Of a stretch of DNA of 64,000 nt, positions 41,406 through 56,178 are shown piece after piece (the first letter of the stretch is position 1; each line of letters opens with the position of its first letter). The notes under the pieces are model-generated. The model saw nothing but the letters and a program-made list of their open reading frames with translations. It had not been told where the DNA came from and did no database searches. A program made the position numbers and the translations under genes. The DNA comes from Methanobacteriota archaeon (lineage in GTDB: Archaea; Thermoplasmatota; Thermoplasmata; SG8-5; DAIRED01). Where the stretch lies: assembly GCA_043799545.1 (NCBI GenBank), contig JAZDNO010000006.1:82091-146090 (forward strand). Direction: 5' to 3'.

Positions 41406-42410
41406 TCAATCTCTTTTTAAATCGTATGCAACCACCGAAGAGCCAGGCGAATATGGGTGGACGATGTTCCACGACCAGCATGTGGCTCCCCGGGCGAGAG
41501 CCTCAAGCTCCCTGGCGCGCCCCCCCTCCGCACCCTTGTCGACAACCTGATAGACGTGAAGCCATGCGCCTGGCGCCGAGGCCTTTAACGCTTCTGGCAG
41601 GAACTCGTGAGCGCTGTGCGGCAGGTTCATGATTATCCGGTCCGCAGGACCGAGCTTCGGGGCCAGTTCCCGGGCGTCCCCGTGGTGCGCGCTAACGGAG
41701 CCCGCCTTGTTCCTGGCGATGTTCGCGCGCAGGAATTCAATGGCGTGGGCGTTCGCGTCCACGCAGGTGACCGACGAGGGCTTGGCTTTCTTCGCGATGA
41801 GTATTGAGAACGGGCCGACCCCGCAGAACATGTCCAGCACGCGCTCCCCCTTTGCCACGAGCTGGGCGATTCGCCACCGCTCGTTCGCGAGCCTGGGAGA
41901 GAAATAGACCTGGGCCAGGTCGAGCTCCAGCTCGATGCCGTACTCCCTGTGGACGGTGCGCGTGCTCTGCCTTCCGGCGACGACCTTCAGGGATCGGACG
42001 CGAAGCTCTCCCTCTACGCCCTGGTCAAGCGCTGCGGAGGCCAGGTTCCTGTTCGCCGCAAGCATGGCCTTTCCGATCTCAGTCGCGTGCGGTGCAAGCT
42101 CGTCAGGGAGTTTGAAGATGGCAACGTCCCCGACGATGTCGAACGAAGACGGCAAGAGCGCCTTCAACCCATCGGGAACTTCAGCCACATCCTTGTAGCT
42201 TTTGATACGGCTGGGAGCTGGTTCGAAATCGTCCTCGCCAACAGGGTAACCCATTGCGGGCCCATCGAGGACGGGCATGTAGACATGGGTCCCATCGGAC
42301 TTTATGCTGAGGTCTCCTCTCAGTAGCCTTGCCTCTGAAAGCTTTTTACGGGCGGACTCGCCTTCCCCTCTGGGCACGATAACGCATCGGGCTCTCACGG
42401 TGCAACGCAT
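41406..42410 (-). CDS. trm5: tRNA (guanine37-N1)-methyltransferase Trm5 (Trm5/Taw2 Met-10+ family)
   Basis: Matches archaeal Trm5 closely: YFSPRLANERWRIAQLV, SAM motif VLDMFCGVGPFSILIAKKA, and NLPHSAHEFL. The N-terminal D1 domain begins MRCTVRARCVIV at 42410; the tracked ORF extends to 42494. Confidence 0.75.
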   Translation of the reverse strand: MRCTVRARCVIVPRGEGESARKKLSEARLLRGDLSIKSDGTHVYMPVLDGPAMGYPVGEDDFEPAPSRIKSYKDVAEVPDGLKALLPSSFDIVGDVAIFKLPDELAPHATEIGKAMLAANRNLASAALDQGVEGELRVRSLKVVAGRQSTRTVHREYGIELELDLAQVYFSPRLANERWRIAQLVAKGERVLDMFCGVGPFSILIAKKAKPSSVTCVDANAHAIEFLRANIARNKAGSVSAHHGDARELAPKLGPADRIIMNLPHSAHEFLPEALKASAPGAWLHVYQVVDKGAEGGRARELEALARGATCWSWNIVHPYSPGSSVVAYDLKRD

Positions 42411-43197
42411 GGGCGAATTGGTATTTGTCGGTTTAGGTCTCGGTCCGGGAGGCGTCAGCCAAGCAGGGCTGGAGGAATTGAAGGGCTGCGGCAAGGTCTT
42501 CGCAGAGACCTACACCGCGCCAGTCGAAAAAGGCATGCTTCCGGAGCTGGCAAAGCTCATAGGGAAGGACATCGCGCTTCTGGGGAGGAAGGATGTCGAG
42601 GACGGGAAGCTCATTCTGATGGAGGCGAGCCGGGGCAGGTGCAGCATCCTGGTCCCGGGCGACCCGATGGTGGCGACGACCCACGTAGACCTGAGGCTCA
42701 GGGCTGTGGAAAGGGGCATCGTGACCAAAATAATCCACGCGGCGAGCATAGGCACGGCCGCCGCTGGCCTTCTGGGGCTCCAGAGCTACAAGTTCGGCCG
42801 GACCACCACGCTGCCTTTCTGGAAACCAGGCTACGAACCGACCAGCCCTTACGACGTCGTCGAGGCCAATCGCAATGAAGGACTGCACACTCTGGTGCTT
42901 CTCGACATCGACGCAGAAGGCGGCGCGGCCATGACTGCGACCCAAGGCATGGCGCAACTGATTGCATTGGAGGCAAAGCTCGGCCGTGGAGTATTCAAAG
43001 CCGACACTCTCGCATGCGTGGTGGCCCGTGCCGGCCACGACGACGTTCTCGTGAAAGCGGGTGAAATAACCGTTCTCGCAAGAGAGGATTTCGGGCGGCC
43101 ACCGCACTGCATCGTCATCCCGGGCAAGCTGCATTTCATGGAATCGGGGGCGCTGGTCGCGCTCGCGGGAGCGCCGAAAACGATATTGAAGGATTAA
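42409..43197 (+). CDS. dph5: Diphthine synthase (tetrapyrrole-methylase fold)
   Basis: MGELVFVGLGLGPGGVSQAGLEELKGC N-terminus and the class-III methyltransferase fold; characteristic Dph5 length of 262 aa. ATG at 42409. Confidence 0.8.
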   Translation: MGELVFVGLGLGPGGVSQAGLEELKGCGKVFAETYTAPVEKGMLPELAKLIGKDIALLGRKDVEDGKLILMEASRGRCSILVPGDPMVATTHVDLRLRAVERGIVTKIIHAASIGTAAAGLLGLQSYKFGRTTTLPFWKPGYEPTSPYDVVEANRNEGLHTLVLLDIDAEGGAAMTATQGMAQLIALEAKLGRGVFKADTLACVVARAGHDDVLVKAGEITVLAREDFGRPPHCIVIPGKLHFMESGALVALAGAPKTILKD

Positions 43198-44022: not shown

Positions 44023-44209
44023 CCCGCCAGACGCTTCGCGCGCCTAGATACCACCAATCCTTGCCGGGGTATATAAACCTAACCTCGGGCGGACATCGGT
44101 CACTCTAGCATGAATTCGTCATTGCTTCAGGTCAATTTATTTATACCATCTCGCTCATCAGCATCGCGGCCAATCTTTTTATCCATTGGCCGGCGCGAGG
44201 TGCACCTAG

Positions 44210-46624
44210 GTGGTTCCCAAAGCTGGCAAAGACGAAGAAGCGACCTGTCCGGTCTGCGGTGGGCCCATAGACGAGGCTGGCGCGAAATGCGCCCGGTGCG
44301 GCGCGGCCTATGTCGCCCCTGGAGACAGAAAGGCGAAAAAGAAGGTCCAGATTGCCCACGGCAGCAAGCCCGAGAAAAAGGAGGCTGCACCCGAGAAACC
44401 TCCCCAGGCAGCGAACGATTCTAAGAATGCGGCCGCCAAGGAAAGCAACGCCGACCTGGCCAAATGGCTGAGCGGCGAGGAGGAGGAAAAGGGCCTGACG
44501 GACTGGCTTGGTGGCGGCAAGACTGAGGCGAAACAGCCGTCCAGGCCCAGCGCAAAGCCAGCTCCGGCACAAGATGCCAAGGACTCCAACGTCGACGCTC
44601 TCAAAGCCTGGCTCAGCGGTGAGGAGGACACGCTTACTTCGTGGCTTGGTGAAGACCCCACGGCGAAACCCAAGGCCGCCTCGGTCCCGTCAGTGGTCTC
44701 GGACGAGGTCAGCAAGGAGCTGGGGGAGCGGGAGAGCGCCCTCGCTGAGAAGGAGACCGCCTTGAAAAAGCGCGAGGAAGACCTCGATGCCATGAGGGGG
44801 GCGCTTCAGGAGCAGCTTTCAAAGGTCCAGACGGGCGAGTTCGATCCGATGGTCCTAATAGAAGAGACGGCCAGGCTCAACAGGGATCTCCAGGCGGAGG
44901 TGAGGAAGCGCAAGGAGCTGGACGACGAAATTGTCCAGGTCAAGAAGGGAAGCATCGCGGTCATCAAGTACGTCAAAGCGCAGCAGATGCAGCGCGGCGG
45001 GGACGCGGCCCGCTCCATCCACAAGCGTCTGGACGAGGTCACCGCGGAGAAGGAGAGGCTCACAGTCGAACTCAAGAAGACCATGGAAATAAACGAAAAG
45101 ATGAAGGCGGACATGGCCGAGGGGCTGAAAGCCCTGCCCGACGGCGACCGGGCCATCAAGGAGAAGGAGATGGCCCTGATGGAGCAGGAAAAGCAGCTGG
45201 AAGCATCGAAAGCGGAGCTGCATGAGAAGGAAAAGCAGATGCGCGAAGCGGTGATTTCCTCCGGCGGGGGGGTAGGGGCGGCTTCGGCTGAGTTGCAGCA
45301 GCGCTTGATGGCCGAGCTCGGGGAGAAAGAGAAGGAATGGCTCAAGAACGAGGGCGAGCTGAAGAAGCGCATACTCGACCTTGAAGCCAACATACAGGAG
45401 CTTAAGATTAACCAGAAGCAGGTCCAGGAGGCGGCGGAGCTCAAGGGCAAGGGTGCGGAGGTCAACGCAGAGCTCGAGCGCAAGATACGCGAGCTTCAGA
45501 TAAAAGAGAAGGCGATGCTCCTCAGGGAGGAGGAGATAAGGAGGCTGTCCCAGCAGCTGAAGGACAAGGACGAGGAGCTCAAGAAGGTCAAGGAGCCCTT
45601 GAAGTACAAGGAGGAGGAGCTGCTGAGGCGCGAAGAGGACCTGCTCCACCGCGAGAAGATATTGATGGAGGAGCGCAGGAAGTACGAGGAGGCGGTGAAA
45701 GACACCGGCAGCCTCCAGACGCACGACATGAAGATGAAGATTGAGGAGCTGAACCAGGAGATAAACCGCAAGGAGGAGCAGATACGCACCAAGGAGCAGT
45801 ACCTCAACGCCAAGATGGAGGACCTTAAGCTGAGGGAGCAGGGGCTCATAGGCCAGGAAATCGAGGCGCGCGAGGAAGACCGCAAGCTGGAGCTGAAAAT
45901 CGAGAAGGTCAAAACGGGCACTTCGAGACTGGACGACCTTCTGCTCGGAGGCATACCTTTCGGGACGAACGTCCTGGTCTACGGTCCGCCTTTCGCCGGA
46001 AAGGAGATTGCCATCAACGCCTTCATCGCAGACGGCCTGAAGAAGGGCGTTCCGGCAATCTGGGTCATCACCGACAAGCTCCCCTCCGAGATACGCGAGG
46101 AGATGATGTTCATAGTGTCAGGGTACGAGGAATACGAAAAGCTCGGCCTGGTCAAATACGTAGATGCGTATTCCAAGAGCATCGGCGAGGTCACGCCTGA
46201 CCCCAATGTCACTTACATCGAAGAGGCCACGGACCACGTGGGCATCTTGAAGGCAGTGGACGCGGTGGCGAAGGAGCTGCTGCAGAAGCACAAGTACTAC
46301 CGGGTGGGGTTCAGGTCGATTTCCACCCTGATAGCGTACCTGGATTCGAACGCCGCATTCAAATTCCTACAGCCGTTCGTCGGCAGGCGCAAGCGCGAGC
46401 GCGCCGTATCCCTCTTCTCCATCGAGAAGGGAATGCACAGCGACCAGGACATCCAGATGATCGGAAGCCAGATGGACGGGGCCATAGAATTCAAGATCGA
46501 GCAGCTGAAGACCTTCCTTTGCATCAAGGGAATCGGCGACGTGCAGTCGAAGGCGTGGATAGAATACACATACAGCAAGCAGGGCATGGCAGTTGGCTCA
46601 TTCAGCTTGGACCATATACGTTAA
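44210..46624 (+). CDS. Zn-ribbon plus WLSGEE-repeat region plus about 450-aa coiled coil plus C-terminal KaiC/RecA-like (FlaH-like) domain with degenerate Walker A
   Basis: N-terminal CPVCGG..CARCG ribbon. Two repeats of LxxWLSGEE..T.WLG. An extremely E/K/L-rich heptad region. The C-terminus LDDLLLGGIPFGTNVLVYGPPFAGKE..ITDKLP has a KaiC-like fold, but the Walker A ends GKE instead of GKT/S. Confidence 0.55.
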   Translation: MVPKAGKDEEATCPVCGGPIDEAGAKCARCGAAYVAPGDRKAKKKVQIAHGSKPEKKEAAPEKPPQAANDSKNAAAKESNADLAKWLSGEEEEKGLTDWLGGGKTEAKQPSRPSAKPAPAQDAKDSNVDALKAWLSGEEDTLTSWLGEDPTAKPKAASVPSVVSDEVSKELGERESALAEKETALKKREEDLDAMRGALQEQLSKVQTGEFDPMVLIEETARLNRDLQAEVRKRKELDDEIVQVKKGSIAVIKYVKAQQMQRGGDAARSIHKRLDEVTAEKERLTVELKKTMEINEKMKADMAEGLKALPDGDRAIKEKEMALMEQEKQLEASKAELHEKEKQMREAVISSGGGVGAASAELQQRLMAELGEKEKEWLKNEGELKKRILDLEANIQELKINQKQVQEAAELKGKGAEVNAELERKIRELQIKEKAMLLREEEIRRLSQQLKDKDEELKKVKEPLKYKEEELLRREEDLLHREKILMEERRKYEEAVKDTGSLQTHDMKMKIEELNQEINRKEEQIRTKEQYLNAKMEDLKLREQGLIGQEIEAREEDRKLELKIEKVKTGTSRLDDLLLGGIPFGTNVLVYGPPFAGKEIAINAFIADGLKKGVPAIWVITDKLPSEIREEMMFIVSGYEEYEKLGLVKYVDAYSKSIGEVTPDPNVTYIEEATDHVGILKAVDAVAKELLQKHKYYRVGFRSISTLIAYLDSNAAFKFLQPFVGRRKRERAVSLFSIEKGMHSDQDIQMIGSQMDGAIEFKIEQLKTFLCIKGIGDVQSKAWIEYTYSKQGMAVGSFSLDHIR

Positions 46625-46777
46625 GCCATCATTTTTTCCGCTTCCAAAGGAATAACGGCAACGGAACGAATAGGAAGAAAAACAGCCAGCCAGTTAATAT
46701 GAATACAGTTATCGAGGCTGCCATGGTTAGGATTAGAATCCCCATAAGAAACCAAGGCGAGAAAACCCAGTCCGCCT

Positions 46778-47200
46778 TCATGCGACTTCGATTCCGGATG
46801 AGGGCTTGGGTCCCGGGCTCTTCCCGATGTTGACCTGCGGCATCGGAATCGGCGGGGGCATCTTCAGGTCCCTGGAGACCATGACCGCCTCTGGCACGCA
46901 GTTCATCATTATCGCCTGGTGAACCTGCGTCGCCACGTCGTCCGGCATCTTGTGCTCGGTCTGCCACTGCTTGGCGACCGCGCTGGCATTGCCTTCGAAG
47001 ACCATCTTGCCCTCGATTTTAATGAAGCCGATGCTCGAGTAGTTGGCTGTGAATCTGAACTCCACGTTGGCCTCCTTGTTATTGATTTCGGAGATGAGCG
47101 TTATACTGCTGTTGTGGTCTATCCTGATGTTGCCCATGGCCTCACCCAGCTTCGTGAAGCGCCGCGCGTCAATCGAGGTGAACTCGAAATTCGTTATCAT
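46778..47200 (-). CDS. Hypothetical protein
   Basis: 140-aa ORF with coding-like composition and no recognisable motifs. A possible about 50-aa hydrophobic mini-ORF (MKADWVFSPWFLMGILILT...) follows in another frame at 46629..46780. Confidence 0.3.
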   Translation of the reverse strand: MITNFEFTSIDARRFTKLGEAMGNIRIDHNSSITLISEINNKEANVEFRFTANYSSIGFIKIEGKMVFEGNASAVAKQWQTEHKMPDDVATQVHQAIMMNCVPEAVMVSRDLKMPPPIPMPQVNIGKSPGPKPSSGIEVA

Positions 47201-47332: not shown

Positions 47333-49543
47333 TCAGCTGTGTTCAAGCCCTATGTTCGAGCATCGAATACGCTCCGATGGTGGCAAATAAATCCGGACTT
47401 GAACCGCAGAATCGCTTCGTTTAGCAATCAAGTTCGATGATTCTGCAAGTTCAAGTCCCCTGCGGCATGAATAGCTGAAAAAATAAAACCTAATGCCGCA
47501 GGCCGGACTTGAACCAGCGACAACTTGATCTTCAGTCAAGCACTCTCCCAGCTGAGTTACTGCGGCACCGTCTCCGGGAAGCCCGCCAGCGTTGCGCTCC
47601 TCTGTGGCGGAGGGGGTTGATTGGACTGCCCCTACATTAAGCTTGCCTTCCCCACCTCTGGTGACCTCGGTGATATTCTCAACAAAGCTCCAGTTCACGG
47701 CGTAGATTTCCGCCCACGTCCCGCGGGTTTCGTTCTCGAACGAGGCGGCCAATACGAACGGCTCCTCCCTCAGCATCGCGAGCGTCTCGTCCGAGACCGG
47801 GGGAAGGCTCATGCCGGCCAGGGAGACCCCGCTGACGCGCATCACGTCGTCCACGAGCACGCAGCCCACGCGGGTCCCGTTCGTTCCGTTTAGTACGTCC
47901 ATGCAGTCGCGCCATTGTGTGGCGTTCCAGATGGCGGCGCCTCCCTCGAACGTCGCCCGGAGTCCCATGGCCTCCAGCTGCGTTCCGAGCCTGTGGTCGG
48001 TTGCGACAGAATATCCAGGGGTGGCGTTCTGGCCAAGCCAATCTAGCGCCGCCAGGTCTTCGTCGCTTATCCGTTCGTCGAAGCCAATCTCAGGCGCCAA
48101 ACGGTAGCTTGCCAGAGCGCTCCCGACAAGCAATGCGACGACCAGGACGGGGACGACGGCGCGCGAACCGACCCTCCAACCCTTTTCATCGATCCAGACG
48201 CCCCTGCCCTCCCACTGTTGCCGTGTGTCCAAGGATGCTGGCCGCAGGTCCGAAATGAATGCCGCATCGCTTCCCCCGACCGTTCCTCCACTCTTGGGCA
48301 GGAAGGGGATGAACCTTCTGGTGGTCTCCATGGAAAAGGCCCTCTCAATGCTTGGCGCAAGCAGGAAAGCCATCCCCATGGCCGCGAAGAGCGACAGTGG
48401 CTCCATCAGGTACTCGAGGTGCCTCTCCGGCAAAAGAATGTCGCTGCCGACTGCGAGCGCAACCGCCATAGAGAGTCCAACCGCCGCGAACCATCCTACG
48501 ATTTCAGAACCCCTTTCAAGCATGGCGGTCCTGCTCAACCCAACAGCGCCGAAGGCCAGGATGGCGAAGACAGGCACAGAATAGACCGCGAGCATGGGAG
48601 TGGCCCTCGATGCTATGGCCGGGCTGTCGGCGATTACCAGCAATGCAATCGTGAAGGTAAGGGCTGAGAACGCGAGTATGAATTTCATTTTTTCATAGCC
48701 TCGCGACACGGGGTCGGAAAGCCAATCCAAGACCGACCTGAACCGTCTCCTGAGAACCAGCAAAGCCGCGGCGAACACCGCATATGCCAGAACGATTGCC
48801 GGCCAGGGGAGCCTGGTTCCTGTTTTCACGAAGGAGAGCACCTCGGTCGCGACGAGCCCCCAGTAAGCGAACGCGAGACATGCGGCGAACGCGATGTATG
48901 CTAGCTGGGCCTTCGAGGGGGCTCGGCGCTGAAGCGCAACCATAGCCGGAAGGGACGCCAGATACAGGTAGGTTGTGAAGTGGTGGGAGCCCACCAGCAG
49001 AGCCGTCGAAGCGATGAGGAGCGCCCAGTCCGCCCTGCCCATCGAGGGCTTGGTCAGCAGGAACATGCATGCCAGGAAGAAGAAATGGCCCATCGTCAAA
49101 GGAGCCGCGTGGCTCGTCTGGTAGACGTGGACGGAATTGACAGCCAAGAGAGCCATGGCGAGAAGCGCGGTTCGGCGCCCCATTCCCGCATTCCTGGCTA
49201 TGAAGTACACGAAGGCCACGGATAGCCCGCCGAACACAGGCGCGACCTTCGTCATCAGCCAGAACGCGTCCGAACCCGTGAGCAGGTGCGGTAATGCCGT
49301 AACCAAATAGAGCACCGGAAAATGCTCGTACGATTGCCCCCATCCGATATATGGCGGGAACAGCGCCCCGTTGTTTATGACCGAAGATGTGAGACCGTAA
49401 TAAATTCCCATATCGCTTCCCCATCCAGAATATATCCAGGCTGGAACTGAGCGAAGGGCGATTGCGAGGGCGCAGAGCCCGATGAAAGCGAGGGCGTGCG
49501 GATTTCGCAGATGCCGCCCGAGAAGCGCCCCCGTTCGAGACAT
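47333..49543 (-). CDS. Polytopic membrane protein with a large sequon-rich extracytoplasmic C-terminal domain, possibly a GT-C-fold glycosyltransferase (ArnT/PMT-like)
   Basis: About 13 TM helices, then a soluble domain with many N-x-S/T sequons. No WWDYG motif, so not a canonical AglB. Start taken at MSRTGALLG; the tracked ORF runs to 49957. The open reading frame continues through tRNA-Phe to 47333. Confidence 0.4.
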   Translation of the reverse strand: MSRTGALLGRHLRNPHALAFIGLCALAIALRSVPAWIYSGWGSDMGIYYGLTSSVINNGALFPPYIGWGQSYEHFPVLYLVTALPHLLTGSDAFWLMTKVAPVFGGLSVAFVYFIARNAGMGRRTALLAMALLAVNSVHVYQTSHAAPLTMGHFFFLACMFLLTKPSMGRADWALLIASTALLVGSHHFTTYLYLASLPAMVALQRRAPSKAQLAYIAFAACLAFAYWGLVATEVLSFVKTGTRLPWPAIVLAYAVFAAALLVLRRRFRSVLDWLSDPVSRGYEKMKFILAFSALTFTIALLVIADSPAIASRATPMLAVYSVPVFAILAFGAVGLSRTAMLERGSEIVGWFAAVGLSMAVALAVGSDILLPERHLEYLMEPLSLFAAMGMAFLLAPSIERAFSMETTRRFIPFLPKSGGTVGGSDAAFISDLRPASLDTRQQWEGRGVWIDEKGWRVGSRAVVPVLVVALLVGSALASYRLAPEIGFDERISDEDLAALDWLGQNATPGYSVATDHRLGTQLEAMGLRATFEGGAAIWNATQWRDCMDVLNGTNGTRVGCVLVDDVMRVSGVSLAGMSLPPVSDETLAMLREEPFVLAASFENETRGTWAEIYAVNWSFVENITEVTRGGEGKLNVGAVQSTPSATEERNAGGLPGDGAAVTQLGECLTEDQVVAGSSPACGIRFYFFSYSCRRGLELAESSNLIAKRSDSAVQVRIYLPPSERIRCSNIGLEHS
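47380..47467 (-). other. tRNA-like remnant with Phe-type acceptor start, T-arm-like copies and an 8-bp hairpin
   Basis: Begins GCCGCAGG like tRNA-Phe and contains GGTTCAAGTCCGG (a T-arm copy), but no foldable cloverleaf. The long hairpin is GCAGAATC...GATTCTGC. More CTTGAAC/GTTCAAG motifs lie at 47320..47360. Confidence 0.35.
47494..47566 (-). tRNA. tRNA-Phe (anticodon GAA)
   Basis: Reverse complement GCCGCAG-TA-ACTC-AGCTGGGA-GAGT-G-CTTGA-CTGAAGA-TCAAG-TTGTC-GCTGG-TTCAAGT-CCGGC-CTGCGGC-A is a perfect cloverleaf with a 7-bp acceptor and a GAA anticodon. Confidence 0.85.
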
Positions 49544-49665
49544 CACGTTCCCCAAGTGCGAAGCCTCCTTCAAATTCGCAACAGGATTTAGTGGTTTTGT
49601 GAGGATATAAGCATATTTGTAAAGCGGTGCCGGGAAGCGCTGAAATGCATATCGTAACCAGCGAC

Positions 49666-49697
49666 ATCTATATATATATAATAGGCTATAATTGGTA
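49666..49697. promoter_or_regulatory. AT-rich divergent promoter region with a (TA)n tract and TATA-like boxes
   Basis: ctatatatatataataggctataattgg lies between the divergent genes starting at about 49543 (minus) and 49727 (plus). It is the most AT-rich intergenic stretch in the window. Confidence 0.35.
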
Positions 49698-49726
49698 AAG
49701 CGCGAGCCTAGCCAAGGAAATAAGTT

Positions 49727-50674
49727 TTGGGGCTTGAGAAGATGTATAGAGGAAGGCGAGGAGAGGGTGGGCGCATAAACCCCTCCCCGAGATGGGGGAG
49801 CGAGGGTGTAGCTTCCACCGTGGGAACGATAATGGCCCTGATGGTTTTCATGGCGATGCTCTCCGTCTTCACTAACCAGTACGTCCCGGTCTGGATGGAG
49901 GACAACGAAGCGAAGCATATGAACGTCGTCGAATCCCAGATGGGAATGCTCAAGCACGGGATTGACACGCAGATACTGGTGGGCCAGCTCGGTGGCGCCA
50001 CGGACATCTCGGTGTACAGTCCCATTACACTGGGTTCGGAGGGCGTTCCGATGTTCGCAGCCCCGACTCAGGGTTATCTGGACGTGCTCCCGGACAGGGG
50101 GCGAAGCACGGTTAATTTCCAGTTCGACCCCAACCCCACGGACCCGACCAGCACACCGGTATCGATTACCTCCTCAAGCACCGGCAGCATAGCCATGGAA
50201 GCCCCGAACCGGTACTACGTTCCGCAGATACTCACATACGAGAACGATGCAATCATCCTCAAGCAGGGCGATGGGGTCATCATGAAGAGCGTTCCCCAGT
50301 TCAGTGTGAGGCAGGAGGGCAACAACTTCCGCGTCTCCTTCACGCAAGTCACTCTCTACGGTGTCAATAAATCGTACGTTGGAAGCGGGACGACCGGGGT
50401 GCACACATCCCTGAGGTACACGAATTCCAGCACGTACAACAACCTCACGACAGATGTCACGATAACGATAACGAGCACGTACGCAAACGCATGGAATGCC
50501 TATTTTAGCGACTACTTGCCCAGAGCGGGTCTCCTTCCGGCGGAATACACGATAGTGCTCAATCCCCCGTTGGCGCCCACACAGCTTGTTCTCACGCTGC
50601 GTATGAACTCTTTCTCCAGCGTCACGGTGAACCAGGCGTATTTCGAAATCCTCATGGGGGAGGTGGGCGAGTAA
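49727..50674 (+). CDS. Type IV pilin-like / FlaF-FlaG-like protein with an N-terminal class-III-signal-like hydrophobic segment
   Basis: A basic N-terminus (RGRRGEGGR) followed by ASTVGTIMALMVFMAMLSVFTNQYVPVW resembles archaeal prepilin/FlaF N-termini. The rest is beta-rich with sequons. First gene of the pilus-like cluster. Confidence 0.45.
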   Translation: MGLEKMYRGRRGEGGRINPSPRWGSEGVASTVGTIMALMVFMAMLSVFTNQYVPVWMEDNEAKHMNVVESQMGMLKHGIDTQILVGQLGGATDISVYSPITLGSEGVPMFAAPTQGYLDVLPDRGRSTVNFQFDPNPTDPTSTPVSITSSSTGSIAMEAPNRYYVPQILTYENDAIILKQGDGVIMKSVPQFSVRQEGNNFRVSFTQVTLYGVNKSYVGSGTTGVHTSLRYTNSSTYNNLTTDVTITITSTYANAWNAYFSDYLPRAGLLPAEYTIVLNPPLAPTQLVLTLRMNSFSSVTVNQAYFEILMGEVGE

Positions 50675-52356
50675 TGGGCCTGAAAGAATCGTACATTGGG
50701 GCGGTGATGAAGGCCGGTTCAAAGAAGATAAAGAAGATGGTCCCCAAAGGCGAGCTGGTCCTGGAGCAGGATTGGAAGGAAGGCCGCGGTTCGCCGCTCT
50801 CCCCAATACCAGAGCTGACGAAAACGACGATGGAGGAGCTGGAGCTGGCTCCGATCAACCCTCCGTTCAGCTATTCGAGGATATTTTACGATTCCGAGAC
50901 CGCAGAATATATATATCAGACCATAGAGCCCCCGATGAGCGACAAGGAGCTGGACCTGCTCCGCCTGATAAAGGACTCGTTGGGCCGGACTCTGGAGTAC
51001 GAGCTGGACAAAATGGGCAACAAGGACAAGGAGGAGTACCTGAAGCGCAGCATAGAGAGCTTCCTGAAAACGCGCAGCCTCAGGATAGACCCCCAGTCAA
51101 AGGAGAAGATTGTGTATTACATAGTCAGAGACTACGTTGGCTACGGCCCGATAGACGTCCTGATGTCGGACCCAAAGATTGAAGATATTTCGTGCGACGG
51201 CGTCAACGTCCCGCTTTTCATATTCCACCAGAAGTACGAATCGATCAAGACGAGCGTCAAGTTCCCGAACGAGGCGGAGCTGAACAGCTTTGTAGTCCAG
51301 CTGGGACAGAGGTGCGGCAAGCAGATTTCCGTCGCCACGCCTATCTTAGACGGTACGACTGGCGAGGGCCACCGCGTCCAGGCGACGTACTCCCGCGAGG
51401 TAACGACCCGCGGCTCGTCGTACACCATCCGCCGTTTCAAGGAGAAGCCTTTCACTCCGGTGGAAATGATAAAGTTCAACACCGCGAACGCGGAGATGAT
51501 AGCATACATGTGGCTGGCGGTCGAGCACGGGAAGTCGATGATAATATGCGGCGGCACGGCGAGCGGAAAAACGGCCACTCTCAATGCGTCCGCCATATTC
51601 ATCGCCCCTGGCAAGAAGATAGTCACGATGGAGGATACGAGAGAGATTAACCTTCCTCACGAAAACTGGATTCCGGGCACGACGCGCACGGGGGTGGGGG
51701 AGCGCGGGCCGGACGGGAAGGCGCCAGGCGAGATAGACATGTTCGAGCTCGTCAGGGCGGCGCTGAGGCAGAGGCCGAACTACATCATCGTCGGAGAGGT
51801 TCGTGGAAAGGAGACCTCGACGATGTTCCAGGCGATGGCTACGGGTCATACGACATTCTCGACGATGCACGCCGACTCGGTGAAGAGCATGGTGACAAGG
51901 CTGGAGAACCCGCCAATCAGCACGCCCAGGATTCTCTTGACGGCGCTGAACTTCGTCATCATCCAGCTCCACGTCCGAGTCAAGGACAGCGAGGTCAGGC
52001 GTATCACCCAAATAGTCGAATTGGTGGGATTCGAGCCCGAAACCAACGAGCTGATAACCAACACGGTCTACGAGTGGGACCAGCGCACGGACTCTTTCAT
52101 CTACAAGGGGCACAGCTTCATCCTGGACGGTCTCATGGAGATGAAGAACATGACCCACGAGGAGATGCAGCGGGAGTTCACCCAGCGCGTGGACGTCATC
52201 AAGTATCTGGTCGAGAAGGACATCACGGATTACAGGGAGATAAACAACCTTATCGTGCTTTACTACAAGGATGCCACGGCGACTGTCACCAAAATAAGGG
52301 AGGAAATGGGCTGGACAGTCCAGGTCCAGATGGAGGGCGGCGAAGTTGGCGCATGA
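50674..52356 (+). CDS. FlaI/TadA-type type IV filament assembly ATPase, copy 1
   Basis: Walker A GGTASGKTATLNA, Asp box MEDTREINLPHENW, Walker B IIVGEVRGKE, His box TFSTMHADSV. An extended N-terminal domain as in archaeal FlaI. Confidence 0.85.
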   Translation: MGLKESYIGAVMKAGSKKIKKMVPKGELVLEQDWKEGRGSPLSPIPELTKTTMEELELAPINPPFSYSRIFYDSETAEYIYQTIEPPMSDKELDLLRLIKDSLGRTLEYELDKMGNKDKEEYLKRSIESFLKTRSLRIDPQSKEKIVYYIVRDYVGYGPIDVLMSDPKIEDISCDGVNVPLFIFHQKYESIKTSVKFPNEAELNSFVVQLGQRCGKQISVATPILDGTTGEGHRVQATYSREVTTRGSSYTIRRFKEKPFTPVEMIKFNTANAEMIAYMWLAVEHGKSMIICGGTASGKTATLNASAIFIAPGKKIVTMEDTREINLPHENWIPGTTRTGVGERGPDGKAPGEIDMFELVRAALRQRPNYIIVGEVRGKETSTMFQAMATGHTTFSTMHADSVKSMVTRLENPPISTPRILLTALNFVIIQLHVRVKDSEVRRITQIVELVGFEPETNELITNTVYEWDQRTDSFIYKGHSFILDGLMEMKNMTHEEMQREFTQRVDVIKYLVEKDITDYREINNLIVLYYKDATATVTKIREEMGWTVQVQMEGGEVGA

Positions 52357-53371
52357 GACCGTCGATGCCTTCAGAAGCCTGGAGGCGAAGGACCAGCACC
52401 TCAAGACGAAGCGCCTTCGCTCGGACGAGGAAAGGGAGGCCGGGCCGCACGTGGTCCTGCTTCCGAAGGGCGCGGTGCCGGAGTACATCAAGCTCACTCC
52501 GTACCAGGAGTTCTGCTGGCGCACCATGGGCAACTACGTCAAGCGTCGTGGCATGAGGGACGAGTTGATGGAGGAGAACCTCGTGAAGGCGCATATGAAG
52601 ATACGCCCCGAGGAGTACTTCGCGCTCATCTACATGACGACCATTATAGCGGCCATAGGAGGCGTCGTGGCTGGCACTGTCATGGCAATATTATTCTTCG
52701 TGGTTTTCACCACCACCGCCATGGTGCTGGGTATTATGTTGACCGTGCTGCCCCCAATCTTGATTCCCATTCTGGTATTCAACGTCCTCAAGGGCTCGCC
52801 GAAGAGCAAGGCGAAGGGCCGCGCGCGGAATATTGATAAAAGGATGGCCAGCGCGATGAGCTTCATTTCCGCGATGGCATCGGCGAACGTTCCCATCGAC
52901 GTGATATTCAAGGAGCTTGGAAGGCAGCCAGTCTACGGCGAAATCAAGTCCGAGGCCGAGTGGATTACCCGTGACACGGAGCTGCTGGGTGTTGACATCA
53001 TCACCGCCGTCAAGAGCGGCTCCCTGCGGTCGCCCTCGACGAAGTTCCAGGACTTCCTCCAGGGCGTCGTCACAACCACGACATCCGGGGGCCAGCTGAA
53101 ACCGTACTTCATGACGAAGGTGGACCAGTTCGAGAAGGAAGACAAGCTTTTGATGAAGCAGACTATGGAAACGCTCTCGATGCTCGCAGAAAGCTACGTG
53201 ACGGTCGTGGTCGCGTTCCCGCTTTTCCTTGTCGTCATCCTCGCGATTATGGCAATCATAGGCGGCACGGCGGCGTCGACTGTAATGATACTATGGCTGG
53301 TAGTGGGACTGATGATTCCGATGGCTATGTTCGGCTTCATATTCGTGATTTGGAACATCAGCCAGGACTGA
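52346..53371 (+). CDS. TadB/FlaJ-like platform membrane protein (T2SS-F domain), first half
   Basis: Cytoplasmic T2SSF-like domain followed by 3 TM helices, 341 aa. Overlaps the ATPase stop by 11 nt. Confidence 0.7.
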   Translation: MAHETVDAFRSLEAKDQHLKTKRLRSDEEREAGPHVVLLPKGAVPEYIKLTPYQEFCWRTMGNYVKRRGMRDELMEENLVKAHMKIRPEEYFALIYMTTIIAAIGGVVAGTVMAILFFVVFTTTAMVLGIMLTVLPPILIPILVFNVLKGSPKSKAKGRARNIDKRMASAMSFISAMASANVPIDVIFKELGRQPVYGEIKSEAEWITRDTELLGVDIITAVKSGSLRSPSTKFQDFLQGVVTTTTSGGQLKPYFMTKVDQFEKEDKLLMKQTMETLSMLAESYVTVVVAFPLFLVVILAIMAIIGGTAASTVMILWLVVGLMIPMAMFGFIFVIWNISQD

Positions 53372-53375
53372 TAGC

Positions 53376-54416
53376 ATGGCCAAACAACAGCAGCAGATGA
53401 CCAATGAGGAGATGAAGAGGGTCGTGATGTCGACCAAGCGCGACCTCACCAGGGTAATCCTTGGCGTCAGCATAGCCGTGGCTATGATATTCGTCATCCT
53501 CGGCGTCCTTAACCTGACCAACCCCCAAGAGTTCGATCACTCGATGAAGGCTTTGAAGCTCAAGGACACCAACCTGGACGGCAGGATAGACTATCTGGAC
53601 ATCAACGCGGGTTACGACAGCAACGGGGACGACGTTCCAGACCAGGGTGAGTACCCCATCAAGCGCTTGGCCAACTTCGTGGTTTTCGCGATGATGGTCA
53701 TGATAGGGCCTTATGCATTCTACAAGTCGAAACAGGATGCCAACATAGTCGCCATCGAGCGCAGGCTTCCAGAGTTCCTCAGGGACGTGGCGGAGGCCGG
53801 GCGCTTCGGCATGACCCTCGCCGACGCCATCGTGGTCGCCGCCAACGGCCGCTACGGCAAGCTTACCATCGAAATCAAGAAGATGGCCGCGCAGATAGAG
53901 TGGGGCGTGCCCGCCTCCGAAGCTCTGAGGCTCTTCGCGGTGCGCATCAACACGCCGGGCGTAAACAGGCTCGTGGCTGTCATCATCAAGGCGAGCGATG
54001 CGGGCGGAAACGTCGCCGACGTTCTGACGATGGTGTCGCACGACGCTCGCGAGACGCAGCTGTCGAAGGACGAGCGGGCGATATCGATGAGCACGTACCT
54101 GGCGGTTGTTTACATCTCTTTCTTCGTTTTCCTCGTGACCATCATCATCTTGAACGCGACGTTCCTACCGAAGATACGCGAGGCGGGAACGATGGTCACC
54201 AGGGCATCGGCCGAGGCGGGGGTTTCCGGCGGAATGGCAACGCTGGACGTCACGGTCATACCCCAGATTGAGCTGGCGTTCTTCGTCTCATCGATGATTC
54301 ACGCGGTCGGCGACGGCATTATGGCCGGCGTGCTGACGAACGGAAAGGTGGCTGCCGGACTGAAGCACTCGTTCATCCTTCTGCTCCTGGGATTCGTCGT
54401 CCTGCAGGTGACCTGA
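53376..54416 (+). CDS. TadC/FlaJ-like platform membrane protein (T2SS-F domain), second half
   Basis: 346 aa with an N-terminal TM segment, a T2SSF-like cytoplasmic domain (RLPEFLRDVAEAGRFGMTLADAI) and C-terminal TM helices. A separate start codon lies 4 nt after the previous stop. Confidence 0.7.
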   Translation: MAKQQQQMTNEEMKRVVMSTKRDLTRVILGVSIAVAMIFVILGVLNLTNPQEFDHSMKALKLKDTNLDGRIDYLDINAGYDSNGDDVPDQGEYPIKRLANFVVFAMMVMIGPYAFYKSKQDANIVAIERRLPEFLRDVAEAGRFGMTLADAIVVAANGRYGKLTIEIKKMAAQIEWGVPASEALRLFAVRINTPGVNRLVAVIIKASDAGGNVADVLTMVSHDARETQLSKDERAISMSTYLAVVYISFFVFLVTIIILNATFLPKIREAGTMVTRASAEAGVSGGMATLDVTVIPQIELAFFVSSMIHAVGDGIMAGVLTNGKVAAGLKHSFILLLLGFVVLQVT

Positions 54417-54426
54417 GGTGAGATGA

Positions 54427-56178
54427 ATGGCGTCCGAGTCCGCGTTGGAGGAAAAGGGGAAGCCCGAAGCCCAGGCCGTGGTGGAAGACGACCAGGCCGT
54501 CGACGAGAGCGGTTTCATGCAGGCGGTGCATTCCGCTCGCGCCAAGCTCGCCAAAAGGATGATGGGCGAGGGCAAGGGCTACAAGATAATGAATGCGAAG
54601 GTGGACGACTCCTTCAAAGGCGAGGTCACAACCATACCCAAGCTAACTGACAAGCACATGAGCGAGATAGAGATTGTGCCGGCTATCAAGGGATTTTCGT
54701 ACATCCGGATTAAGTACGACAACGTTTCCAACGAGTACATCTACGAGGCAATCGAACCGCAGCTCAGCAGCGAGGAGGAGAACCTGCTCTCCATTTTCAA
54801 GGAGATACTCGTGGAGGCGCTGGAGTTTCTGGCGGACACCAGGGTGGAGGCTAAGGAGAAGTACCTCAAGGGGGCCGTCTCCAGCATCCTGGCCGACCTC
54901 GGCATCACGCTCAACCCAGCCTCGAAGGAGCGCATCACCTACTACATCATGAGGGATTTCATCCGCTACGCGGCGCTCGACGTGGCAATGATAGACCCCG
55001 AGGTGGAGGACGTATCCTGCGACGGAGTGAACGTTCCGATATATATCTATCACAGGAAATACGGCTCTATCCAGTCGAACATCCGGTTCAAGACGGCCCC
55101 GGAGCTGGACAGCTTCGTCGTCTGGCTGGCCCAAAAGTGTGGCAAGCACATCTCCGTCGCCGAGCCTATGCTCGACGCGACTATTCCAGACGGCTCGAGG
55201 CTGCAGGCCACGCTGGGGATGCACGTCACCAAGCGCGGCTCCTCATTCACAATCCGCAGGTTCAAGGAGAACCCTTTCACCCCGCTGGACCTCATCCGGT
55301 TCAAGACCATGTCGCTAGACATGATGGCTTACCTCTGGCTCTGCATCGAGAACGGGAAATCGATGCTCGTATGCGGAGGCACTGCGAGCGGTAAAACGAC
55401 CACGCTCAACGCGATTCTTCTGTTCATCCCGCCTCAGATGAAGATTGTCAGCATCGAGGACACGCGCGAGCTGAACCTCCCGCACGAGAACTGGGTCCCG
55501 ACCCTGACCAGGGCAGGTTTCGGCGGGAAGAACCCGGTGACGGGAAAGGCTGCTGGCGAGATAGACATGTTCGACCTGCTCACGGCCGCGCTGAGGCAGC
55601 GCCCCCAGTACCTGATGGTCGGCGAGGTCCGTGGTTCGGAGGCGTACGTCGTGTTCCAGGCCATGGCTACGGGCAAGACCGCATACACCACGTTCCACGC
55701 CGAAGACGTCCAGTCGATGGTCCACAGGATGGAGAACCCGCCGATATCGCTGCCGAGGGCGCTAATCGGGGCTCTGAACCTGGTGATGATGCAGGCACAG
55801 GTGAAGGTTGGCACGAAGATGACGAGGCGCGTCAAGTCCCTCACGGAGGTCGTGGGCATGGACCCCGAGACGAACGAGCTCATTACGAACTCGGTCTACA
55901 CGTGGAACCCGGCGGACGACACGTTCAACTACTCCGGTCACAGCTACATTTACGAGGACATCACGATGAGGAAGAACTGGTCCCCGAGGGAGATGCAGCG
56001 CGAGGTCAAGCGCCGGATAGACGTTCTATCGTGGATGAGCAAAGCCAATATGAACAACTACCGCCAGGTCGCGAGGATTGTCTCCGGGTACTACAAGGAC
56101 AAGGACCGGGTCATCGAGGAGCTCAACAAGTACGCCGCAGACGAAGAGGCTAAGAAGGCTGCGGCCCCGAAAGCGTAG
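54427..56178 (+). CDS. FlaI/TadA-type type IV filament ATPase, copy 2 (paralog of 50674..52356)
   Basis: Walker A GGTASGKTTTLNA, IEDTRELNLPHENW, LMVGEVRGSE, TTFHAEDV. About 55 to 60% identical to copy 1 over the conserved regions I compared by eye. Confidence 0.85.
   Translation: MASESALEEKGKPEAQAVVEDDQAVDESGFMQAVHSARAKLAKRMMGEGKGYKIMNAKVDDSFKGEVTTIPKLTDKHMSEIEIVPAIKGFSYIRIKYDNVSNEYIYEAIEPQLSSEEENLLSIFKEILVEALEFLADTRVEAKEKYLKGAVSSILADLGITLNPASKERITYYIMRDFIRYAALDVAMIDPEVEDVSCDGVNVPIYIYHRKYGSIQSNIRFKTAPELDSFVVWLAQKCGKHISVAEPMLDATIPDGSRLQATLGMHVTKRGSSFTIRRFKENPFTPLDLIRFKTMSLDMMAYLWLCIENGKSMLVCGGTASGKTTTLNAILLFIPPQMKIVSIEDTRELNLPHENWVPTLTRAGFGGKNPVTGKAAGEIDMFDLLTAALRQRPQYLMVGEVRGSEAYVVFQAMATGKTAYTTFHAEDVQSMVHRMENPPISLPRALIGALNLVMMQAQVKVGTKMTRRVKSLTEVVGMDPETNELITNSVYTWNPADDTFNYSGHSYIYEDITMRKNWSPREMQREVKRRIDVLSWMSKANMNNYRQVARIVSGYYKDKDRVIEELNKYAADEEAKKAAAPKA

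What the first reader, a model, noticed from the sequence alone, without database searches (positions are those of the whole stretch)
44210..46624. 804-aa Zn-ribbon/coiled-coil protein ending in a KaiC/RecA-like domain with a GKE Walker A
The architecture is unusual. It has a treble-clef ribbon (CPVCGG..CARCG). It has two copies of a W-L-S-G-E-E...W-L-G motif in an A/K/P-rich region. It has about 450 residues of near-perfect heptad coiled coil, comparable to SMC or intermediate-filament rods. It ends in a KaiC/FlaH-like RecA-fold domain (LDDLLLGGIPFGTNVLVYGPPFAGKE) whose P-loop lysine is followed by Glu instead of Thr/Ser, so it is probably ATPase-dead or an ATP-binding sensor. FlaH-like proteins belong to the archaellum/pilus motor. 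Given the pilus locus 3 kb downstream, this could be a long cytoskeletal tether or stator-like element for that machinery. It could also be an unrelated filament-forming protein.
Basis: partly seen in the sequence, partly recalled or inferred. Interest (0 to 1): 0.62.

Follow-up and report, generated by a model that had tools for sequence, protein, structure and literature searches.

The report
Coiled-coil protein with dead KaiC domain
This is a real, uncharacterised protein conserved across the archaeal phylum Thermoplasmatota: a zinc ribbon, a long segmented coiled-coil stalk and a KaiC/RecA-like end domain that has lost its catalytic residues, so it most likely acts as a scaffold and not as an ATPase or pilus motor part.

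Summary
The 804-aa ORF (44210-46624, +) is real and conserved. The search found 265 homologues and relatives in 271 GTDB species genomes; all but one mislabelled record are Thermoplasmatota MAGs.

- A CxxC-x10-CxxC zinc ribbon.
- Two W-L-x-G-E...W-L-G repeats with four invariant Trp.
- About 400 helical residues.

The coiled coil is seven segments with register shifts, not a near-perfect rod.

GKE is no alignment error: 119 of 120 homologues have it. The KaiC catalytic Glu-Glu is Asp-Lys here, and the Walker B Asp is Arg. The domain is therefore a pseudo-ATPase that keeps its P-loop Gly and Lys.

The pilus idea is weak. Only the window and one clade of seven loci have the pilus locus nearby. 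FlaH scores 22.7 bits against a cut-off of 194.

The one conserved neighbour is a convergent 140-aa gene of unknown function, adjacent in 57-60 of the 82-85 loci examined. About 40% of orthologues carry an (HhH)2 domain after the zinc ribbon.

Best reading: a non-enzymatic coiled-coil scaffold with a nucleic-acid-binding head and an oligomerising pseudo-KaiC hub. The cellular role is unknown. It is a new variant of a known kind, of moderate interest.

The parts
44210..46624 (+). Gene for the 804-aa zinc-ribbon / coiled-coil / pseudo-KaiC protein (GTG start, TAA stop)
   Evidence: ORF. (265 homologues, one 100% identical). (relatives in 271 species genomes).
44197..44202 (+). GAGGTG Shine-Dalgarno-like site 8 nt before the GTG start. 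AT-rich TATA-like stretches lie at 44136-44145 and 44176-44182. All were read by eye.
   Evidence: sequence. Orthologues have GGGGTGA at the same distance from the homologous start. The promoter assignment is inference only.
44240..44308 (+). Zinc ribbon, residues 11-33 (C13, C16, C27, C30; CxxC-x10-CxxC)
   Evidence: Pfam DZR is only E=0.26. AlphaFold2 pLDDT is about 73-75 here.
44309..44440 (+). Lys/Ala/Pro-rich disordered linker, residues 34-77. About 40% of orthologues have an (HhH)2 domain at this position.
   Evidence: pLDDT about 30. HhH domains at residues 60-190 in orthologues. HhH present in 34 of 82 loci.
44447..44512 (+). Trp-rich repeat 1, residues 80-101 (DLAKWLSGEEEEKGLTDWLGG)
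   Evidence: W86, L87 and W99 are invariant in 31 homologues. Predicted as a short helix pair.
44591..44653 (+). Trp-rich repeat 2, residues 128-148 (VDALKAWLSGEEDTLTSWLGE)
   Evidence: L131, W134, L135, G137 and W145 are invariant.
44699..45898 (+). Segmented coiled-coil stalk, residues 164-563. Seven helices: 164-204, 213-261, 266-307, 311-350, 357-413, 417-497, 502-563.
   Evidence: AlphaFold2 secondary structure. (heptad contrast z 1.8-4.8 per segment, with register shifts).
44831..44989 (+). Most conserved stretch of the stalk, residues 208-260 (GEFDP...VKKGSIAVIKYVKAQ)
   Evidence: A221, L227, K246, A250, Y254, K256 and Q258 invariant.
45908..46621 (+). C-terminal KaiC/RecA-fold domain, residues 567-804 (also matches Pfam DUF7504)
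45983..46006 (+). Deviant P-loop G592-PPFAG-K598-E599 (Walker A with Glu in place of Thr/Ser)
46070..46078 (+). T621-D622-K623, at the position of the KaiC-family catalytic Glu-Glu
   Evidence: aligned to ALEEHP of PH0284. (K623 invariant; T621 and D622 at least 90% conserved).
46310..46318 (+). F701-R702-S703, at the position of the Walker B Asp (hhhhDS)
   Evidence: aligned to VVDS of PH0284. (invariant). (never a conserved Asp in the wider family).
46632..46637 (+). T6 run 8 nt after the stop codon, a likely archaeal oligo-T terminator
   Evidence: sequence. The function is inferred.
46778..47200 (-). Convergent 140-aa gene of unknown function with an invariant PPPxPxP motif near its C-terminus. 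It is the only conserved neighbour.
   Evidence: adjacent tail-to-tail in 60 of 85 loci, mostly 7-160 bp apart, 37-86% identity. (57 of 82 non-redundant loci). (594 homologues, all 'hypothetical'; every named one is a Thermoplasmatota MAG). (no Pfam, PDB or NCBIfam match).
49727..56178 (+). Type IV pilus-like locus (DUF7289, T2SSE, T2SSF, T2SSF, T2SSE). Listed for context only, because the link to the gene is confined to one lineage.

Best explanation
The gene encodes a conserved, non-enzymatic scaffold protein of the archaeal phylum Thermoplasmatota. Each step below is marked as shown or inferred.

1. The C-terminal domain has the KaiC/RecA fold (shown).
2. It cannot hydrolyse ATP in the canonical way, because the Walker A Thr/Ser, the catalytic Glu pair and the Walker B Asp are all replaced (shown by alignment).
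3. It keeps an invariant GxxxxGK P-loop. It therefore probably still binds a nucleotide or another phosphate-bearing ligand as a structural or sensing cofactor (inferred).
4. Its closest solved relatives, PH0284 and KaiC, are crystallised with six chains per entry and are known as ring hexamers. The domain probably serves as an oligomerisation and interaction hub (inferred).
5. The roughly 400-residue segmented coiled coil forms dimeric stalks projecting from that hub. A single extended coil of that length would span up to about 60 nm (inferred from helix content and heptad pattern).
6. The N-terminal zinc ribbon, joined by an (HhH)2 domain in about 40% of orthologues, is a nucleic-acid-binding head, most likely for DNA (inferred from domain identity only).
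7. The two invariant Trp-rich repeats are docking motifs. The conserved convergent 140-aa gene is the most likely partner (inferred from synteny only).

The protein is not a general component of pilus or archaellum motors.

For: Dead active site: GKE in 119 of 120 homologues. In the profile alignment to PH0284, GKT aligns with GKE, ALEEHP with ITDKLP, and VVDS with FRS. These residues are invariant or nearly so in 31 diverse orthologues.

The wider family (150 cluster representatives) shows the same pattern. The P-loop Gly and Lys are kept (133-138 of about 143). The next residue is E or D in 125 of 143. The Walker B position is never a conserved Asp (R 42, L 33, E 12...).

Stalk.

A coiled coil in front of this domain recurs in the wider family, and the N-terminal heads vary: zinc ribbon, HhH, or 1-3 transmembrane helices. 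This fits a hub, a stalk and an exchangeable anchor.

HhH domains.

Lineage-wide conservation inside housekeeping neighbourhoods, with no operon.

Partner gene. Where the gene is not adjacent, it is still on the same 956-kb contig (P0315 and P0025).
Against: - No experiment and no characterised homologue exists. Four of the five literature searches found nothing on this family; the fifth was only a look-up for the Makarova 2017 paper.
- Oligomeric state, ligand binding and nucleic-acid binding are all untested.
- The window protein itself lacks the HhH domain.
- Pfam zinc-ribbon matches are sub-threshold.
- AlphaFold2 confidence is only moderate: pLDDT 67.7 and pTM 0.71 for the domain, pTM 0.33 for the full length. 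The highly conserved C-terminal 40 residues are modelled poorly.
- Model coordinates could not be inspected, so the geometry of E599 and R702 is unknown.
- The partner gene is on the opposite strand, so co-transcription is excluded. One clade (L003, L006-L019) lacks the adjacency.
- The pilus locus does recur next to the pair in one related clade, so a lineage-specific functional link is not excluded.
Confidence: 0.5

Rival explanations
1. Pilus-associated tether or stator. The protein anchors or regulates the type IV pilus-like machine encoded 3 kb downstream. It would be analogous to FlaH/ArlH or to the KaiC-family ATPases found near archaeal type IV pilus loci.
Against: Those seven loci form a single clade. 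All other loci with 8-10 kb of downstream sequence lack pilus genes and have TiaS, aminotransferase, enolase and the like instead. The genes are not in one operon: the 140-aa gene and, in the window, an 874-aa gene lie between on the other strand. NCBIfam FlaH scores 22.7 bits against 194. FlaH has a canonical Walker A and was crystallised with ATP and Mg (4yds title), whereas this domain has lost the Mg-coordinating residues.
Confidence: 0.1
2. Nucleotide-sensing signalling switch. The domain still binds ATP or ADP, with Arg702 and Glu599 substituting for Mg2+. Nucleotide state changes the oligomer or stalk conformation, and this controls DNA binding by the zinc-ribbon/HhH head. That would make it a KaiC-like signal hub with a transcriptional or chromatin output.
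For: The P-loop Gly and Lys are invariant although the catalytic residues are lost, which argues for retained ligand binding. DNA-binding-type head domains are present. Weak similarity to the MEDS sensory domain, a KaiC-like derivative (E=1e-4, below threshold). One distant family member carries a cNMP-binding domain.
Against: No partner kinase, KaiB-like gene or regulator is linked. Arg702 is conserved only in the orthologous group, not in the wider GKE family. A 400-residue stalk is unusual for a transcription factor. Nothing has been tested.
Confidence: 0.2
3. Cytoskeletal, filament-forming coiled-coil-rich protein that shapes or divides the cell, with the KaiC-like domain acting only as an end cap.
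For: A long heptad-patterned helical region rich in E, K, R, Q and L. Lineage-wide conservation as a core gene. Paralogous subfamilies with transmembrane anchors.
Against: The rod is segmented with many breaks and register shifts. Conserved charged residues along the rod suggest specific contacts more than bulk filament packing. The zinc ribbon and HhH head are not explained by this reading. There is no linkage to FtsZ, SepF, CetZ or ESCRT genes in any of the 82 loci.
Confidence: 0.1
4. RNA- or tRNA-related ring, like the Elp4/5/6 RecA-fold ring. This is suggested by the recurrent tRNA- and translation-modification neighbours.
Against: PAXNEB hits are below threshold in the proteins scanned individually and overlap the generic RecA core. 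The neighbours are on varying strands and vary between clades, as expected for a core-genome region. KaiC-family hits are far stronger.
Confidence: 0.05

Closest known systems
Single-domain archaeal KaiC-like proteins PH0284 (PDB 2dr3) and SSO2452 (2w0m)
   Different: PH0284 has the canonical GTGKT, ALEEHP and VVDS motifs. It has no N-terminal extension: no zinc ribbon, Trp repeats or coiled coil.
Cyanobacterial clock protein KaiC, and the Rhodobacter KaiC with a C-terminal coiled coil (PDB 8dba; PMC10076222)
   Same: Same Pfam family (PF06745) and same fold. The Rhodobacter protein shows that a KaiC ring can be combined with a coiled-coil bundle.
   Different: KaiC has two tandem active domains, and by established knowledge it has autokinase and ATPase activity and phospho-sites. 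Here there is one domain with a dead site. NCBIfam circ_KaiC scores 21.9 bits against 546. The coiled coil here is N-terminal and about 400 residues long, not a short C-terminal extension.
FlaH/ArlH of the archaellum motor (PDB 4yds, 4wia)
   Different: NCBIfam FlaH scores 22.7 bits against a cut-off of 194. FlaH has a canonical Walker A and binds ATP with Mg (4yds title). It is encoded in archaellum operons and has no coiled coil or zinc ribbon. No archaellum genes occur here.
Archaeal RadA / eukaryotic Rad51 and their catalytically degenerate paralogues (RadB, RAD51C/D, XRCC2/3)
   Different: There are no significant Rad51 or RadB family scores (RadB 22.9 bits against 278). A 400-residue coiled coil and the Trp repeats are inserted between the head and the core. 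The window protein lacks the HhH domain.
Pfam DUF7504 / DUF7090 (uncharacterised KaiC-like domains)
   Same: The C-terminal domain scores above the DUF7504 threshold (38.9 bits against 27). It scores 25.8 bits, just under the DUF7090 threshold of 27. Most family members match both.
   Different: These are domain-only families of unknown function. They do not describe the zinc ribbon, Trp-repeat and coiled-coil architecture, and no paper mentions them.

Membership tests
KaiC/RecA-fold superfamily (Pfam PF06745 'ATPase/KaiC') | Sequence match to the family model above its gathering score | tested here: met
   52.1 bits against a cut-off of 26.6, residues 567-745. 78 of 79 wider-family members also match.
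KaiC/RecA-fold superfamily (Pfam PF06745 'ATPase/KaiC') | RecA-like alpha/beta fold | tested here: met
KaiC/RecA-fold superfamily (Pfam PF06745 'ATPase/KaiC') | Canonical Walker A GxxxxGK[T/S] | tested here: not met
   GPPFAGKE. Glu in 119 of 120 homologues.
KaiC/RecA-fold superfamily (Pfam PF06745 'ATPase/KaiC') | Catalytic Glu(-Glu) after strand 2, and the Walker B Asp | tested here: not met
   ITDKLP aligns with ALEEHP, and FRS aligns with VDS, in the alignment to PH0284. The residues are invariant or nearly so.
Circadian KaiC proper | Two tandem KaiC domains, with a match to the equivalog model | tested here: not met
   One domain only. TIGR02655 scores 21.9 bits against 546.25, and PRK09302 scores 34.8 against 408.
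Circadian KaiC proper | Linked kaiB (and kaiA) genes | tested here: not met
   None found among the window neighbours scanned or among the recurrent neighbour clusters of 82 loci.
FlaH/ArlH | Match to the FlaH family model | tested here: not met
   PRK06067 scores 22.7 bits against a cut-off of 194.
FlaH/ArlH | Encoded in an archaellum (arl/fla) operon beside ArlI and ArlJ | tested here: not met
   It is a monocistronic gene flanked by opposite-strand genes. The pilus-type ATPases lie 4 kb away, and only in one clade.
FlaH/ArlH | ATP binding through an intact Walker A | not testable with these tools
   The Walker A Lys is kept and Thr is replaced by Glu. Binding needs biochemistry.
SMC / Rad50-type coiled-coil ATPases | ABC-type ATPase head split by an antiparallel coiled coil, with a hinge or zinc hook at the apex | tested here: not met
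   No ABC or SMC family hit. The RecA-fold domain is contiguous at the C-terminus. The Rad50 zinc-hook hit has E=0.079, lies at the N-terminus and is not significant.
RadA/Rad51 recombinases | Match to the Rad51/RadA/RadB models and an intact ATPase site | tested here: not met
   RadB scores 22.9 bits against 278. Rad51 Pfam matches 1 of 79 wider-family members at E about 1e-3. The active site is degenerate.
Pfam DUF7504 | Match above the gathering score | tested here: met
   38.9 bits against 27, residues 585-760.
Anti-phage defence proteins (PADLOC) | Match to any defence-system model | tested here: not met
   No hit for this protein or for the 140-aa neighbour.

The most novel reading that the evidence does not exclude
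The protein is the core of a previously unrecognised structural system of Thermoplasmatota. A ring of dead KaiC-like domains would act as a hub from which long coiled-coil arms project. The arms would end in zinc-ribbon/HhH heads that hold DNA, and in Trp-rich motifs that dock the polyproline (PPPxPxP) tail of the conserved 140-aa partner. Paralogues with the same stalk and hub but transmembrane heads could co-assemble with it. That would give a nucleoid-to-membrane tether or a chromosome-organising device built on a RecA-fold pseudo-enzyme.
Probability: 0.1. Interest if true: 0.75.

Novelty: new variant of a known kind. Interest (0 to 1): 0.45.

Why it matters
KaiC-like proteins are abundant in archaea and mostly unexplained. 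This family shows a clear, lineage-wide case in which the KaiC/RecA fold has been turned into a non-catalytic module. The P-loop is kept, but the Mg-coordinating and catalytic residues are lost. The module is always preceded by a coiled coil, with exchangeable heads: zinc ribbon, HhH or transmembrane helices.

If the scaffold reading is right, it points to an unstudied structural or organising system. Thermoplasmatota has very few cultured representatives, and its cell biology (chromosome organisation, shape, membrane attachment) is largely unknown.

The analysis also supplies concrete handles for experiments: the GKE/DK/R triad, the four invariant Trp residues and the conserved 140-aa partner.

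Tried and rejected
- **SecB idea.** By eye the 140-aa neighbour resembled SecB. Only one sequence was compared, so this is a weak test.
- **Annotation of the 140-aa protein.** Pfam at E<=10, NCBIfam, a PDB profile search and PADLOC all gave nothing.
- **N-terminal module in other architectures.** A profile of residues 78-262 was searched for other domain combinations. The word-index candidate list saturated at 8000, and only 12 short fragments were scored, so the search was uninformative.
- **PDB profile search with the same N-terminal module.** Only non-significant coiled-coil noise was found.
- **Foldseek against afdb50.** The library was not available.
- **Makarova et al. 2017, mBio (KaiC-like hubs).** The paper is not held in the library, so arCOG membership could not be checked.
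- **First heptad score.** My first single-sequence score did not discriminate. It was replaced by an alignment-averaged score with shuffles.
- **Second KaiC-like gene in the window.** None was found.
- **Contexts of two distant paralogues (L085, L086).** These gave no functional hint beyond a tandem paralogue pair.
- **E599-R702 salt bridge as a family-wide feature.** Rejected, because position 702 varies in the wider family.
Full report
**Observation**

The ORF at 44210-46624 (+) is real: 804 aa with a GTG start. A GAGGTG Shine-Dalgarno-like site lies 8 nt upstream, and a T6 run follows the TAA stop. An identical protein is deposited from a 223-kb MAG contig as 'ATPase domain-containing protein [Methanobacteriota archaeon]'. 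The search returned 265 homologues, and the 120 best listed are 45-100% identical and mostly full-length. Every one that carries a name comes from a Thermoplasmatota MAG (Thermoplasmata, Methanomassiliicoccales). A scan of one genome per GTDB species found relatives in 271 stretches. The 80 retrieved are all Thermoplasmatota, except one record labelled Omnitrophota.

**Anatomy**

1. *Zinc ribbon.* Residues 11-33 form a four-Cys ribbon, CxxC-x10-CxxC. Pfam ribbon models are only sub-threshold. The motif is nevertheless conserved in about 74 of 82 loci. Orthologues that seemed to lack it are truncated gene calls. The ribbon is encoded in frame upstream, and the homologous start codon is CTG in at least seven loci, preceded by GGGGTGA.
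2. *Linker.* Residues 34-77 are a disordered Lys/Ala/Pro-rich linker (pLDDT about 30). In 34 of 82 loci this position holds an (HhH)2 domain instead (Pfam HHH_5 and HHH_2 above threshold).
3. *Trp-rich repeats.* Two repeats, h-x-x-W-L-x-G-E-x(4-6)-L-x-x-W-L-G, carry W86, L87, W99, W134, L135, G137 and W145, all invariant in 31 diverse homologues.
4. *Stalk.* Residues 164-563 are helical in AlphaFold2, as seven helices of 40-81 residues separated by short Gly/Pro breaks. The alignment-averaged a/d hydrophobic contrast exceeds shuffles in each segment (z 1.8-4.8), but the register shifts. Many charged residues in it are invariant, notably in 208-260 and 425-482.
5. *End domain.* Residues 567-804 match Pfam KaiC (52.1 bits against 26.6) and DUF7504 (38.9 against 27).

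**The end domain**

The profile alignment to PH0284 shows three substitutions:

| Motif | PH0284 | This family |
|---|---|---|
| Walker A | GTGKT | FVGKE |
| Catalytic Glu-Glu | ALEEHP | ITDKLP |
| Walker B | VVVDS | LAFRS |

- G592, G597, K598, E599, K623, F701, R702 and S703 are invariant in 31 diverse orthologues, and T621 and D622 are at least 90% conserved.
- GKE occurs in 119 of 120 homologues.
- An exhaustive profile search found 2178 proteins at E<1e-3 and 205 at E<1e-30.
- In the best 150 cluster representatives the P-loop Gly and Lys are kept in 133-138 of about 143.
- The following residue is Glu or Asp in 125 of 143.
- The Walker B position is never a conserved Asp (R 42, L 33, E 12, F 10...).

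The domain is therefore a pseudo-ATPase that still maintains a P-loop. That argues for retained binding of a phosphate-bearing ligand without canonical Mg-dependent hydrolysis; this last step is inference.

**Context**

The window neighbours are housekeeping genes:

- Upstream: class IV aminotransferase, a radical-SAM-like gene, dCTP deaminase, Trm5, a tetrapyrrole-methylase-family gene (probably diphthine synthase), and a CobW/HypB/UreG-family GTPase.
- Downstream: a 140-aa ORF on the minus strand, an 874-aa membrane protein on the minus strand, then DUF7289, T2SSE, T2SSF, T2SSF, T2SSE and a 2253-aa CARDB/zinc-ribbon protein.

I clustered all ORFs within about 8 kb in 82 non-redundant loci. 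The only widely conserved neighbour is the 140-aa gene, found in 57 loci, always convergent and usually 7-160 bp from the stop codon. The next most frequent neighbours are TiaS (33 loci), a class III aminotransferase, deoxyhypusine synthase, enolase and biotin carboxylase, assigned by Pfam for TiaS and by eye for the rest.

The pilus locus lies downstream only in the window and in L065, L071, L072, L079 and L084, and partly in L081 and L082. Those seven loci form one clade in a neighbour-joining tree of the protein. Three orthologue contexts retrieved independently also show no pilus genes. The pilus link is therefore lineage-limited synteny, not a property of the family.

**The 140-aa neighbour**

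It has 594 homologues, all called 'hypothetical' and all from the same phylum where named. It has no Pfam, NCBIfam, PDB-sequence or PADLOC match. Its invariant features include a PPPxPxP motif near the C-terminus. In the clade that lacks adjacency, the gene is still on the same contig (P0315 with P0025). A SecB resemblance that I suspected by eye was not supported.

**Wider family**

The N-terminal parts of the 150 representatives are almost all rich in E, K, R, Q and L, and so are coiled-coil-like. Some carry zinc ribbons, and one subfamily of about 870-970 aa has 1-3 predicted transmembrane helices. A Pfam census of 79 representatives found no other recurrent domain. One locus has two paralogues in tandem. 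The recurring theme is a pseudo-KaiC domain preceded by a coiled coil, with variable heads.

**Interpretation**

The best-supported reading is a non-enzymatic scaffold made of three parts:

- an oligomerising, possibly ligand-binding pseudo-KaiC hub;
- coiled-coil stalks;
- a nucleic-acid-binding head (zinc ribbon, with (HhH)2 in many orthologues).

The Trp-rich repeats would be docking motifs, perhaps for the 140-aa partner. Only the fold, the loss of catalytic residues, the helical stalk, the domain content and the synteny are shown here. Oligomerisation, ligand binding, DNA binding and the partner interaction are inferred.

The rivals are a nucleotide-sensing switch with a DNA-binding output, a lineage-specific pilus accessory, a cytoskeletal filament, and an Elp456-like RNA-binding ring. 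They are ranked in the rival list.

**Known or new**

No paper on the family, or on DUF7504/DUF7090, was found. The Makarova 2017 survey of archaeal KaiC-like proteins could not be read. The protein already sits in databases under generic names. I class it as a new variant of a known kind: the KaiC-like superfamily with an inactivated site and an undescribed architecture.

Interest is moderate (0.45). The family is well defined, phylum-wide and has clear experimental handles. Its function remains speculative, and pseudo-enzyme versions of RecA-fold domains are already known (Elp4-6, RAD51 paralogues, MEDS).

Noticed in passing
L008:4731-4770, L009:9980-10020, L010, L011, L012, L016, L019 (upstream ends of the orthologous genes): In at least seven orthologues the codon homologous to the window's GTG start is CTG, 6-7 nt after a GGGGTGA Shine-Dalgarno-like site. 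Public gene calls start further downstream and cut off the zinc ribbon. L014 has ATG and L015 has TTG at the same position. This looks like genuine CTG initiation in this clade.
   Followed up: partly
window 46778-47200 (-): The 140-aa ORF belongs to a Thermoplasmatota-only family of 594 'hypothetical' proteins with no match in any library. It has an invariant PPPxPxP motif and is kept tail-to-tail with the KaiC-like gene across about 40-86% sequence divergence.
   Followed up: partly
window 56229-62990 (-): A giant 2253-aa protein with CARDB repeats and several C-terminal zinc ribbons or double zinc ribbons flanks the pilus locus. Homologues (29-55% identity over partial alignments) sit in the same position in L065, L071, L072, L079 and L084.
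   Followed up: partly
window 49727-56178 (+): The pilus-like locus has two T2SSE-type ATPases, both with a PilB3-like C-terminal domain and 61% identical to each other over a 280-residue core segment. It also has two T2SSF/TadC-like membrane genes and a DUF7289 gene at its head. The arrangement is conserved in the L065-L084 clade.
   Followed up: partly
window 47333-49957 (-): An 874-aa ORF with only a weak PMT (protein mannosyltransferase) hit lies between the 140-aa gene and the pilus locus. It has no homologue in any of the 84 related loci, so it looks like a lineage-specific insertion. A 324-aa ORF lies nested in it, so the true gene boundaries are uncertain.
   Followed up: no
L024 (CP070807.1, labelled 'Candidatus Omnitrophota bacterium'): A complete 1.8-Mb chromosome labelled as a bacterium encodes a 49%-identical orthologue of this Thermoplasmatota-specific protein. 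The record is probably mislabelled.
   Followed up: no
P0169, P0184, P0188, P0197, P0199, P0233, P0247, P0261, P0263 and others; L086:8001-13443: A paralogous subfamily of about 870-970 aa has the same GKE-type pseudo-KaiC domain and coiled coil, but 1-3 predicted transmembrane helices near the N-terminus. In L086 two paralogues (1062 and 628 aa) are adjacent on the same strand.
   Followed up: partly
window 41406-42494 (-) and 42304-43197 (+): The longest ORFs for Trm5 and the tetrapyrrole-methylase (diphthine synthase-like) gene overlap by about 190 nt at their 5' ends. At least one true start must lie further in.
   Followed up: no
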